Below are positions 38,634-39,446 of a stretch of DNA of 64,000 nt, piece by piece. The translations under genes and the position numbers were made by a program. Position 1 is the first letter of the stretch, and the number at the start of each line of letters is the position of its first letter. This stretch comes from Escherichia phage vB_EcoM-UFV06, in sequence record OP555980.1. One strand, 5' to 3'. Below the pieces are notes generated by a model. It had not been told where the DNA came from, did no database searches, and saw only the letters and a list, made by a program, of their open reading frames with translations.

Positions 38634-38918
38634 TTACAAAAGATTTTTAGCAATAATTTTAAGCTGAGCTACTGAAATATGCTTGGCTTTAAACAAAGCA
38701 GTTTCTTCAGCAGGGGAGATAACGATTGTAGCACCATCTTTCTTAGCGGACCATCCATCACCCAGGTAAACAGTACCTTTGACTTCTTCGCCATCAACCA
38801 GGCTAATCATCGGTTTACCTTCACGTCCTTTGTTTGCTTTAATAACTTCAGAAGTAAGGGTCGCTTCAGTCAAAGTAGAAGCGTTAGTGGTTGAAGTGAA
38901 TTCTTGATAAGTTTTCAT
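38634..38918 (-). CDS. ipI: Internal protein I
   Basis: 94 aa; N-terminus MKTYQEF capsid-targeting sequence; position upstream of 57B. Confidence 0.7.
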   Translation of the reverse strand: MKTYQEFTSTTNASTLTEATLTSEVIKANKGREGKPMISLVDGEEVKGTVYLGDGWSAKKDGATIVISPAEETALFKAKHISVAQLKIIAKNLL

Positions 38919-38948
38919 TTTATTTTCCTAATTAATTTTGATGAGGTA

Positions 38949-38977
38949 ATAGTATCACTACCTCATCAGCATGTAAA
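38949..38977 (-). promoter_or_regulatory. Early promoter for ipI
   Basis: Minus-strand TTTACA, 17 bp, TACTAT; the -10 lies inside a perfect 10-bp inverted repeat. Confidence 0.6.
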
Positions 38978-38990
38978 CAACTTTGTGAAA

Positions 38991-39446
38991 TTATTTTAAA
39001 TCATCTGCCCAATCGAATTTAAGAGGCTCTTTGTATTCACGATCTAATACGACCGGAATTTGTACATCACCGCTAAATGATAAGGGCCCAACATTATAAG
39101 ACAATGTTATATGCGGTGTGTAATCATCAAAATCATGTGTAGCACCTAGTGCCCGCGCATACATGTGTCGACAGCGCAAATATTCAGAATCTAGTACAAG
39201 TACAAGAGTAGATCCATCTTGTGTTTTCCATACTTCTAAATGTCCAGAAGAAGCTACTTCAAAACTTCCGCTTGATGGAACATATGGAACATTTACTCTC
39301 GAATAACATATAGTCGAATGAATTTTTTCTCTAGGAACTGGATTAGGAACACGTAAAGAGCGCTGAAGTTCTTCCAGCGCATCAAGTGTTAATTCTGAAA
39401 ACTTAGCTGCTACATAAAGACCCGTTGAAAAGTCTTTAAATTCCAT
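38991..39446 (-). CDS. 57B: 2H-phosphoesterase-family protein; T4 57B/Acb1-like
   Basis: 151 aa with two H-x-T/S motifs (HSTICYS, HITLSY); synteny next to 57A; T4 57B is the reported anti-CBASS nuclease Acb1. Confidence 0.7.

What the first reader, a model, noticed from the sequence alone, without database searches (positions are those of the whole stretch)
38634..39446. Anti-defense neighbourhood: ipI and a 57B/Acb1-like 2H phosphoesterase beside the tRNA cluster
ipI carries the capsid-targeting leader, and T4 IPI is an injected inhibitor of a modification-dependent restriction enzyme. The adjacent 151-aa protein has two H-x-T/S motifs typical of 2H phosphoesterases and matches the position of T4 57B, the reported anti-CBASS nuclease Acb1. 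With the tRNA cluster and the CTS cassette, this 5-kb stretch concentrates counter-defense functions and is a good place to look for more among the four unassigned ORFs at 37156..38557.
Basis: partly seen in the sequence, partly recalled or inferred. Interest (0 to 1): 0.45.

Follow-up and report, generated by a model that had tools for sequence, protein, structure and literature searches.

The report
T4 ipI and acb1 anti-defence genes
These are the already well-studied phage T4 genes ipI (an injected inhibitor of a host restriction enzyme) and 57B/acb1 (an enzyme that destroys the host's CBASS alarm nucleotides), present almost unchanged in a T4-like coliphage, so the finding is correct but ordinary.

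Summary
The window is a Tequatrovirus genome; 37000-39800 is 100% identical to Escherichia phage vB_EcoM-UFV09 and three sister records.

- **acb1 (38991-39446, minus strand).** It encodes a 151-aa protein that is 150/151 identical to T4 57B/Acb1. It scores 200.8 bits against Pfam Acb1 (cut-off 27) and is 67% identical to the solved Acb1 of Erwinia phage FBB1 (7T26). Its HxT/HxT tetrad (H43, T45, H112, T114) is essentially invariant in 139 diverse homologues.
- **ipI (38634-38918, minus strand).** It encodes IPI, 86/95 identical to T4 IPI. The MKTYQEF capsid-targeting leader is present, and an LTE|A site lies exactly where mature IPI* (PDB 2JUB, 73/76 identical) begins.
- **Gene order.** The order ipI-57B-57A-1-3-2-4-53-5 is that of T4.
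- **The four "unassigned" ORFs.** Three are T4 trna.4, trna.3 and trna.2. The fourth is a 171-aa phage-only protein that T4 lacks. None matches a characterised family or fold, so I found no evidence of anti-defence function for them.
- **Cassette structure.** ipI sits between two repeated early-promoter/stem-loop (PeSL) motifs. It occurs in 290 phage records, whereas acb1 occurs in 1471, at a conserved site beside 57A in the records inspected.

Both genes and their mechanisms are published, so the novelty is "already known" and the interest is low.

The parts
38991..39446 (-). acb1 (T4 gene 57B): a 151-aa 2H-phosphoesterase that cleaves CBASS cyclic oligonucleotides. Catalytic H43-S-T45 lies at nt 39320-39312 and H112-I-T114 at nt 39113-39105.
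   Evidence: 150/151 identical to T4 NP_049750.1. Pfam PF23474 Acb1, 200.8 bits against a cut-off of 27. PDB 7T26 E = 1.3e-61, 95/142 identical. The tetrad is conserved in 139 homologues.
38634..38918 (-). ipI: the 94-aa precursor of internal protein I. The leader and propeptide are residues 1-18 (nt 38865-38918). Mature IPI* is residues 19-94 (nt 38637-38864).
   Evidence: 86/95 identical to T4 IPI. The mature part is 73/76 identical to PDB 2JUB, and the alignment starts exactly after LTE. Pfam PF11634 IPI_T4, 173 bits.
38919..38990 (-). PeSL-type early promoter plus stem-loop upstream of ipI: TTTACA, 17-nt spacer, TACTAT, with a 13-bp hairpin that covers the -10 box.
   Evidence: Promoter scan. 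Exact 19-mer TTTCACAAAGTTGTTTACA at 38972-38990. Fold z-score -4.13. It matches the published PST/T4 PeSL consensus TTTACW N17 TAYWAT (PMC4122927).
38558..38633 (-). Second PeSL-type early promoter plus stem-loop, downstream of ipI and upstream of trna.4. It forms the other boundary of the ipI cassette.
   Evidence: The same exact 19-mer at 38609-38627. Promoter scan. Fold z-score -2.63. Alignment of the copies. In phage KMB40 a second ip gene lies between ipI and trna.4.
38372..38557 (-). trna.4: a 61-aa hydrophobic protein of unknown function.
   Evidence: 61/61 identical to T4 Trna.4. phrog_1692, unknown function.
37967..38371 (-). trna.3: a 134-aa protein of unknown function with a variable N-terminal half and an invariant C-terminal half (NFLLFAGDNYYPxGGY...FDWWQIVNAxTH).
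37674..37964 (-). trna.2: a 96-aa protein of unknown function.
   Evidence: 93% identical to T4 Trna.2. The family is narrow, 45 clusters all at 69% identity or more. T4 Trna.2 was enriched in a DRT1 pull-down, which the authors did not follow up (PMC13275509).
37156..37671 (-). A 171-aa ORF (phrog_2290) that T4 lacks. It has an invariant GY..TTWENDGDNYKT hairpin motif. Function unknown.
39446..39688 (-). 57A, the tail-fibre chaperone. It is the conserved upstream neighbour of acb1; its stop codon overlaps the acb1 ATG (TAATG).
   Evidence: ORF list and sequence. T4 annotation.
36055..37069 (-). Cluster of 11 tRNA genes: Arg, His, Asn, Tyr, Met, Thr, Ser, Pro, Gly, Leu, Gln.
   Evidence: ARAGORN and Rfam.

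Best explanation
The stretch holds two independent, already characterised counter-defence genes of T-even phages, in their T4 positions.

(1) acb1 (gene 57B) encodes a small metal-independent 2H phosphoesterase. After infection it binds the cyclic di- and trinucleotide signals made by host CBASS cyclases (3'3'-cGAMP, cUA, cAAA). It uses the H-x-T/H-x-T tetrad for acid-base attack of the 2'-OH on the 3'-5' bond and linearises the signal through a cyclic-phosphate intermediate. The CBASS effector is therefore never activated.

(2) ipI encodes a precursor whose N-terminal leader carries it into the prohead scaffold core. The gp21 prohead protease cuts after LTE(18) to give the 76-residue IPI*. 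A few hundred copies are ejected with the DNA and stoichiometrically block one specific GmrSD-type type IV restriction enzyme, which would otherwise cut glucosyl-hydroxymethylcytosine DNA.

Shown here: orthology, intact catalytic and processing motifs, and synteny. Inferred from experiments on the near-identical T4 proteins: activity, packaging and targets.

ipI is a one-gene cassette bounded by two repeated early-promoter/stem-loop (PeSL) motifs. This explains why it is variable among relatives, whereas acb1 is conserved beside 57A.
For: - **Acb1.** 150/151 identity to T4 57B. Pfam Acb1, 200.8 bits. E = 1.3e-61 and 67% identity to the solved FBB1 Acb1, 7T26/7T27. H43, T45 and H112 are invariant and T114 is kept in 132/139 of diverse homologues; the aromatic positions Y11, W73, F106 and Y109 stay aromatic in nearly all of them.
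- **Acb1 mechanism and phenotype.** Taken from Hobbs et al. 2022: T4 57B = Acb1, HxT/HxT tetrad H44/T46/H113/T115, H44A/H113A inactive, and a T4 acb1 deletion mutant was compared with wild type in plaque assays on CBASS-carrying hosts (PMC9117128). acb1 is depleted on a CBASS host in a transposon screen (10.1101/2025.11.20.689424).
- **IPI.** 86/95 identity to T4 IPI. 73/76 identity to IPI* in 2JUB, starting exactly after LTE. Pfam IPI_T4, 173 bits.
- **IPI biology.** Packaging, gp21 processing and about 360 copies per head (PMC9958956). Ip1 inhibits GmrSD of strain CT596 only, with no cross-protection among Ip1, Ip2 and Ip3 (PMC12373910).
- **Synteny with T4**.
- **PeSL cassette**.
- **Prevalence.** 290 phage records carry ipI and 1471 carry acb1.
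Against: No experiment has been done on this particular phage.

Mature IPI* differs from T4 at three positions (I28V, A65V, H67Q in mature numbering). I could not retrieve the mutagenesis and structure paper to see whether these residues contact GmrSD. Because Ip-GmrSD pairs are highly specific, a shift in target cannot be excluded.

Acb1 has one change, in the C-terminal lid (T4 L145 is F here). At this column Leu is commonest among homologues (67/139) and Phe is rare (6/139).

No TATAAATA late promoter lies directly upstream of ipI. The nearest one on the same strand is at 40044-40051, inside gene 1. Late expression of ipI is therefore inferred from T4, not shown here.
Confidence: 0.93

Rival explanations
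1. The stretch is a functional anti-defence island. Besides ipI and acb1, the flanking small ORFs (trna.2, trna.3, trna.4 and the 171-aa ORF) and the tRNA cluster also counter host immunity and are co-located for that reason.
For: - Small, fast-evolving, phage-restricted accessory genes lie in a hyperplastic region bounded by PeSL motifs.
- T4 Trna.2 was one of only two phage proteins enriched with active DRT1 in a pull-down (PMC13275509).
- Phage tRNAs are documented to rescue infection from tRNA-cleaving defences in T5-like phages (PMC11555353 and PMC11464382).
- The ipI locus of phage Bas37 holds another leader-bearing protein that inhibits McrBC.
Against: - No family, fold or literature match assigns any anti-defence role to the four ORFs.
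- The DRT1 authors did not pursue Trna.2.
- The terms trna.2, trna.3 and trna.4 do not occur in the HIDEN-SEQ preprint.
- acb1 and ipI show different conservation, which argues against a co-selected island.
- No tRNA-targeting defence has been linked to T4-type tRNAs in anything I retrieved.
Confidence: 0.2
2. The 57B product is an RNA ligase or RNA-repair 2H enzyme (LigT-like), as RefSeq and PHROGs label it, and not primarily an anti-CBASS nuclease.
For: RefSeq T4 annotates 57B as 'RNA ligase', and phrog_755 is named 'RNA ligase'. There is a weak hit to Pfam 2_5_RNA_ligase2, E = 0.073 and 13.5 bits, which reflects the shared 2H fold.
Against: The 2'-5' RNA ligase hit is far below its cut-off (13.5 against 27 bits), whereas the Acb1 model scores 200.8 bits. 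Direct biochemistry on the T4 protein shows cyclic-oligonucleotide cleavage, and a transposon screen shows acb1 is needed on a CBASS host. The 'RNA ligase' label predates that work.
Confidence: 0.03
3. This phage's IPI variant has a shifted or lost specificity. The three substitutions in mature IPI* retarget it to a different GmrSD allele or make it inactive against the CT596 enzyme.
For: Ip-GmrSD pairs are strictly specific, with no cross-protection (PMC12373910). There are three substitutions in 76 residues. This exact variant is rare: 18 of 290 records are at least 99% identical, and most are 90-95% identical.
Against: The substitutions are conservative (I to V, A to V, H to Q), and the protein is 96% identical to the characterised one. 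Full length, leader and cleavage site are intact.
Confidence: 0.1

Closest known systems
Phage T4 Acb1 (gene 57B, NP_049750.1; Hobbs et al. 2022, PMC9117128)
   Same: 150/151 residues. The same HxT/HxT tetrad. The same position between 57A and ipI. Almost the same length (151 against 152 aa).
   Different: One residue shorter at the N-terminus as annotated. One substitution in the C-terminal lid (T4 L145 is F144 here).
Erwinia phage FBB1 Acb1 (PDB 7T26 and 7T27)
   Same: 67% identity over the whole solved chain. Both H-x-T motifs align, as does the C-terminal lid segment.
   Different: A different phage genus. About a third of the residues differ, for example W73 here is Phe in FBB1.
Phage T4 internal protein I / IPI* (NP_049749.1; PDB 2JUB), inhibitor of GmrSD from E. 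coli CT596
   Same: The same family (Pfam IPI_T4), the same leader type and the same LTE|A processing site. The mature chain has the same 76-residue length and is 73/76 identical. The same locus.
   Different: The leader is one residue shorter and reads MKTYQEF rather than MKTFKEF. Mature-chain changes are I28V, A65V and H67Q.
PeSL (promoter-early stem-loop) shuffling cassettes of T4-type phages (Arbiol et al. 2010, PMC2839356; Comeau et al. 2014, PMC4122927)
   Same: A repeated early promoter (TTTACA, 17-nt spacer, TACTAT) with a hairpin flanks a variable accessory gene. A relative (KMB40) has an extra ip gene at the same junction.
   Different: Recombination at these repeats is inferred from comparison, not observed. 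Three other copies in the window share the promoter part (8075, 20717, 34656). Of these only the 34656 copy was folded, and it has no significant hairpin.
Bas37_0260, a leader-bearing McrBC inhibitor at the ipI locus of phage Bas37 (10.1101/2025.11.20.689424)
   Same: It occupies the same locus and uses the same N-terminal packaging leader.
   Different: According to the authors it has no homology to IPI beyond the leader, and it has a different target. This window carries the T4-type ipI instead.

Membership tests
Acb1 (anti-CBASS 2H phosphoesterase, Pfam PF23474) | Full-length match to the family profile above the curated cut-off | tested here: met
   200.8 bits against a cut-off of 27; residues 8-149 cover profile positions 1-144 of 144.
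Acb1 (anti-CBASS 2H phosphoesterase, Pfam PF23474) | Active-site HxT/HxT tetrad (T4 H44, T46, H113, T115) | tested here: met
   H43-S-T45 and H112-I-T114 are present. They align with HTT and HIT of 7T26. They are invariant or nearly invariant in 139 homologues. The tetrad is defined in PMC9117128.
Acb1 (anti-CBASS 2H phosphoesterase, Pfam PF23474) | Compact 2H phosphoesterase fold with a C-terminal lid | tested here: met
   Not modelled separately. The fold is implied by an ungapped, end-to-end alignment (one 1-residue indel) at 67% identity to the crystal structure 7T26, including the lid residues.
Acb1 (anti-CBASS 2H phosphoesterase, Pfam PF23474) | [quoted passage not shown] | not testable with these tools
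   Shown for the T4 protein, which differs by one residue (PMC9117128; 10.1101/2025.11.20.689424).
Acb1 (anti-CBASS 2H phosphoesterase, Pfam PF23474) | Position immediately downstream of 57A in T4-type genomes | tested here: met
   The 57A stop overlaps the acb1 start. T4 and phage P8 have the same order. Tail-fibre chaperone annotations lie beside the tblastn hits across Straboviridae.
T4 internal protein I (Pfam PF11634 IPI_T4) | Match of the mature domain to the IPI* profile or structure | tested here: met
   173 bits against a cut-off of 25; residues 19-94 cover profile positions 1-76 of 76. 2JUB E = 7.5e-43.
T4 internal protein I (Pfam PF11634 IPI_T4) | N-terminal capsid-targeting leader of the MKT(Y/F)x(E/Q)F type | tested here: met
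   MKTYQEF at residues 1-7. The same motif heads three other ORFs in the window and T4 IPII and IPIII.
T4 internal protein I (Pfam PF11634 IPI_T4) | gp21 prohead-protease site that releases the 76-residue IPI* | tested here: met
   L16-T17-E18|A19. A19 aligns with residue 1 of the solved mature protein. This is sequence-level evidence only; cleavage itself was not observed.
T4 internal protein I (Pfam PF11634 IPI_T4) | Packaging into the head, injection, and inhibition of GmrSD of strain CT596 | not testable with these tools
   Established for T4 (PMC9958956; PMC12373910).
PeSL shuffling cassette | Early promoter TTTACW N17 TAYWAT combined with a stem-loop, repeated on both sides of a variable gene | tested here: met
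   Consensus from PMC4122927. Variable content at the junction in phage KMB40.
Known anti-defence proteins (for the four flanking ORFs) | Sequence or fold relationship to a characterised inhibitor or enzyme | tested here: not met

The most novel reading that the evidence does not exclude
At least one of the four small ORFs between the tRNA cluster and ipI is an undescribed counter-defence factor. The two best candidates are Trna.2, which co-purified with the active DRT1 reverse-transcriptase defence in T4 infection, and the 171-aa T4-absent protein with the invariant TTWENDGDNYKT acidic hairpin and a faint resemblance to the DNA-mimic Ung inhibitor p56.
Probability: 0.2. Interest if true: 0.5.

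Novelty: already known. Interest (0 to 1): 0.08.

Why it matters
It matters little for discovery. Both genes, their structures, mechanisms and host targets are published, and this copy is nearly identical to the T4 reference.

The practical value is in annotation. The 100%-identical GenBank records call both proteins 'hypothetical', and RefSeq T4 still labels 57B 'RNA ligase'. Host-range or phage-therapy assessments that rely on those annotations would miss that this phage carries an anti-CBASS nuclease and a GmrSD inhibitor.

The flanking ORFs are reasonable but unproven candidates for defence-panel screening.

Tried and rejected
- **Family searches on the flanking ORFs.** I searched the four ORFs and their neighbours against Pfam, PHROGs and NCBIfam. 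Only unknown-function PHROGs came back, and NCBIfam gave nothing.
- **Homologue searches.** The 171-aa ORF, Trna.3 and Trna.2 all have narrow families restricted to T4-like phages. The precomputed Pfam accessions PF26894 and PF27001 are not in the local Pfam copy, so I could not read their names.
- **Papers not held.** I tried to read Bair et al. 2007 and Rifat et al. 2008 to check whether the three substituted IPI* residues are functionally important. Neither paper is held.
- **Late promoter for ipI.** I looked for a TATAAATA late promoter directly upstream of ipI and found none. The nearest on the same strand is inside gene 1.
- **'RNA ligase' label.** I considered the label for 57B and rejected it, on the sub-threshold 2'-5' ligase hit against the strong Acb1 hit and on published biochemistry.
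- **Rfam.** The scan of 34000-40000 found only the tRNAs. The rnaC and rnaD homologues were identified by alignment to T4 instead.

Full report
**What the window is.** The ORF map around the finding shows the T4 gene order on the minus strand: ipI, 57B, 57A, gene 1 (dNMP kinase), 3, 2 and 4, followed by 53 and 5 on the plus strand. A megablast of 37000-39800 against GenBank phages finds 872 records. Four of them (Escherichia phages vB_EcoM-UFV09, -UFV05, -UFV10 and -UFV11, genus Tequatrovirus) are 100% identical over the whole query. The T4 reference annotation gives the same layout: tRNA cluster, trna.2, trna.3, trna.4, ipI, 57B, 57A, 1, 3, 2, 4, 53, 5.

**The 57B/Acb1 gene (38991-39446, minus strand).**
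- The 151-aa product is 150/151 identical to T4 57B. The one difference is T4 L145 to F144 here, in the C-terminal lid.
- It matches Pfam PF23474 (Acb1) end to end at 200.8 bits against a cut-off of 27. The generic 2'-5' RNA ligase 2H model reaches only 13.5 bits.
- Against solved structures, the best match is Acb1 of Erwinia phage FBB1 (7T26/7T27), with E = 1.3e-61 and 95/142 identical residues. Two more distant PDB entries named Acb1 also match.
They correspond to the H44/T46/H113/T115 tetrad that Hobbs et al. defined structurally; the H44A/H113A protein is catalytically inactive (PMC9117128).
An exhaustive HMMER search of 1.84 billion cluster representatives gave 1337 relatives at E up to 1e-3. 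In a MAFFT alignment of 139 near-full-length representatives (31-52% identity), H43, T45 and H112 are invariant. T114 is Thr in 132 and Ser in 6. The aromatic ligand-contact positions stay aromatic in nearly all of them. The motifs are therefore conserved.
- The mechanism is published. Cleavage is metal-independent, occurs 3' of adenosine and proceeds through a cyclic phosphate. [quoted passage not shown]
- The phenotypes are published too. A T4 acb1 deletion mutant was compared with wild type in plaque assays on CBASS hosts, and acb1 is conditionally required on a CBASS host in a transposon screen.

**The ipI gene (38634-38918, minus strand).**
- The 94-aa product is 86/95 identical to T4 IPI. 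It matches Pfam IPI_T4 at 173 bits.
- Residues 19-94 align with residues 1-76 of the NMR structure of mature IPI* (2JUB), 73/76 identical. The precursor is therefore expected to be cut after L16-T17-E18.
- The leader begins MKTYQEF, the motif shared by T4 IPII and IPIII and by three other ORFs in this window.
- Published work on T4 shows about 360 copies of IPI in the scaffold core and removal of the N-terminal peptide by the gp21 protease. IPI is then injected with the DNA and inhibits GmrSD (PMC9958956).
- Ip1, Ip2 and Ip3 each inhibit a different GmrSD variant, with no cross-protection (PMC12373910).
- The three mature-chain substitutions (I28V, A65V, H67Q) are conservative. I could not obtain the structure-function paper to judge them.

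**Cassette structure.**
- The 72-nt and 76-nt intergenic regions on either side of ipI each contain the exact 19-mer TTTCACAAAGTTGTTTACA. Five matches at up to three mismatches occur in the window, against 0.07 expected.
- The 19-mer is followed by a TG-extended TACTAT -10 box at 17-nt spacing and by a hairpin spanning the -10 region. The fold z-scores are -4.1 and -2.6.
- This matches the PST/T4-type 'promoter-early stem-loop' (PeSL) consensus TTTACW N17 TAYWAT, which has been proposed to mediate modular shuffling, including at the IP locus (PMC4122927).
- Consistent with this, phage KMB40 carries an extra 75-aa ip gene between ipI and trna.4, and Bas37 carries unrelated leader-bearing genes at the locus.
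- tblastn finds IPI in 290 phage records and Acb1 in 1471. 454 of the Acb1 records are at least 99% identical to this protein.
- acb1 is thus a conserved gene next to 57A, and ipI is a swappable cassette. Their adjacency reflects genome architecture rather than demonstrated co-selection.

**The four 'unassigned' ORFs.**
- 38372-38557 is Trna.4 (61/61 identical to T4). 37967-38371 is Trna.3 (85%). 37674-37964 is Trna.2 (93%).
- 37156-37671 (171 aa from the ATG, phrog_2290) has no counterpart in T4, which has only 97 bp at this position.
- None of the four matches a characterised Pfam, PHROG or NCBIfam family.
- The 171-aa protein has 14 homologue clusters, all from phage-like contigs. It has an invariant GY..TTWENDGDNYKT hairpin and an RV.E motif.
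- Trna.3 has a variable N-terminal half and an almost invariant C-terminal half. Its model is mediocre (pTM 0.47) and has no informative fold match.
- Trna.2 belongs to a narrow family. The only functional hint in the literature is its enrichment, with Inh, in a pull-down of active DRT1 from T4-infected cells, which the authors did not follow up (PMC13275509).

**The tRNA cluster as counter-defence.** There are eleven tRNA genes, compared with eight in T4. Phage tRNAs have been shown to bypass Retron-Eco7 and PARIS in T5-type phages.

**Verdict.** Both genes are textbook or recently published T4 counter-defence factors present nearly unchanged, so the novelty is 'already known' and the interest is low. 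The residual novel possibility is that one of the flanking small ORFs is a new anti-defence factor. I put this at about 0.2.

Noticed in passing
window 30660-31133 (-) and 31150-31467 (-): Two ORFs at the ipII/ipIII locus carry the MKTYKEFI packaging leader but share nothing else with T4 IPII or IPIII. One is Pfam DUF7412 (317.8 bits). They are probably injected internal proteins with unknown targets, possibly other type IV restriction enzymes.
   Followed up: partly
window 34831-35304 (-), with TATAAATA at 35341-35348 (-): A 157-aa ORF with a leader-like N-terminus (MKSYTQFLNEA). T4 lacks it, but it is present in 511 phage records (phrog_2280, everywhere annotated as hypothetical). A late-promoter consensus lies about 37 nt upstream of its start, which fits a head-packaged protein.
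   Followed up: partly
window 36055-37069 (-), gap at 36211-36324: The tRNA set differs from T4. It has His, Asn, Tyr and Met, and lacks Ile and the segB homing-endonuclease gene. A 114-nt spacer between tRNA-His and tRNA-Asn has no tRNA or Rfam call. Phage P8 lacks tRNA-His at this position.
   Followed up: no
window about 35380-35683 (-): Homologues of the T4 small stable RNAs rnaD (species 2) and rnaC (species 1), nearly identical to T4 over most of their length. They are not detected by Rfam. A 116-aa ORF (35686-36036, phrog_3355) is inserted between them and tRNA-Arg, which are adjacent in T4.
   Followed up: partly
window 8075-8093, 20717-20735 and 34656-34674 (all -): Further copies of the extended early-promoter repeat TTTCACAAA(G/A)(T/C)(T/A)GTTTACA that bounds ipI. 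They lie upstream of other small accessory ORFs. The 34656 copy has no significant hairpin.
   Followed up: partly
window 37156-37671 (-): The 171-aa T4-absent protein has a strikingly invariant acidic hairpin, TTWENDGDNYKT, conserved down to 26-38% overall identity. This suggests a specific binding or metal site. The fold is confidently predicted but matches nothing characterised.
   Followed up: yes
GenBank MZ291552.2, OP572230.1, OP555981.1 and OP555982.1; RefSeq NC_000866.4: Annotation gap. MZ291552.2, the one 100%-identical record I opened, labels both ipI and acb1 'hypothetical protein', and the hit summaries of the other three list six hypothetical proteins over the same stretch. RefSeq T4 still names 57B 'RNA ligase'.
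   Followed up: yes
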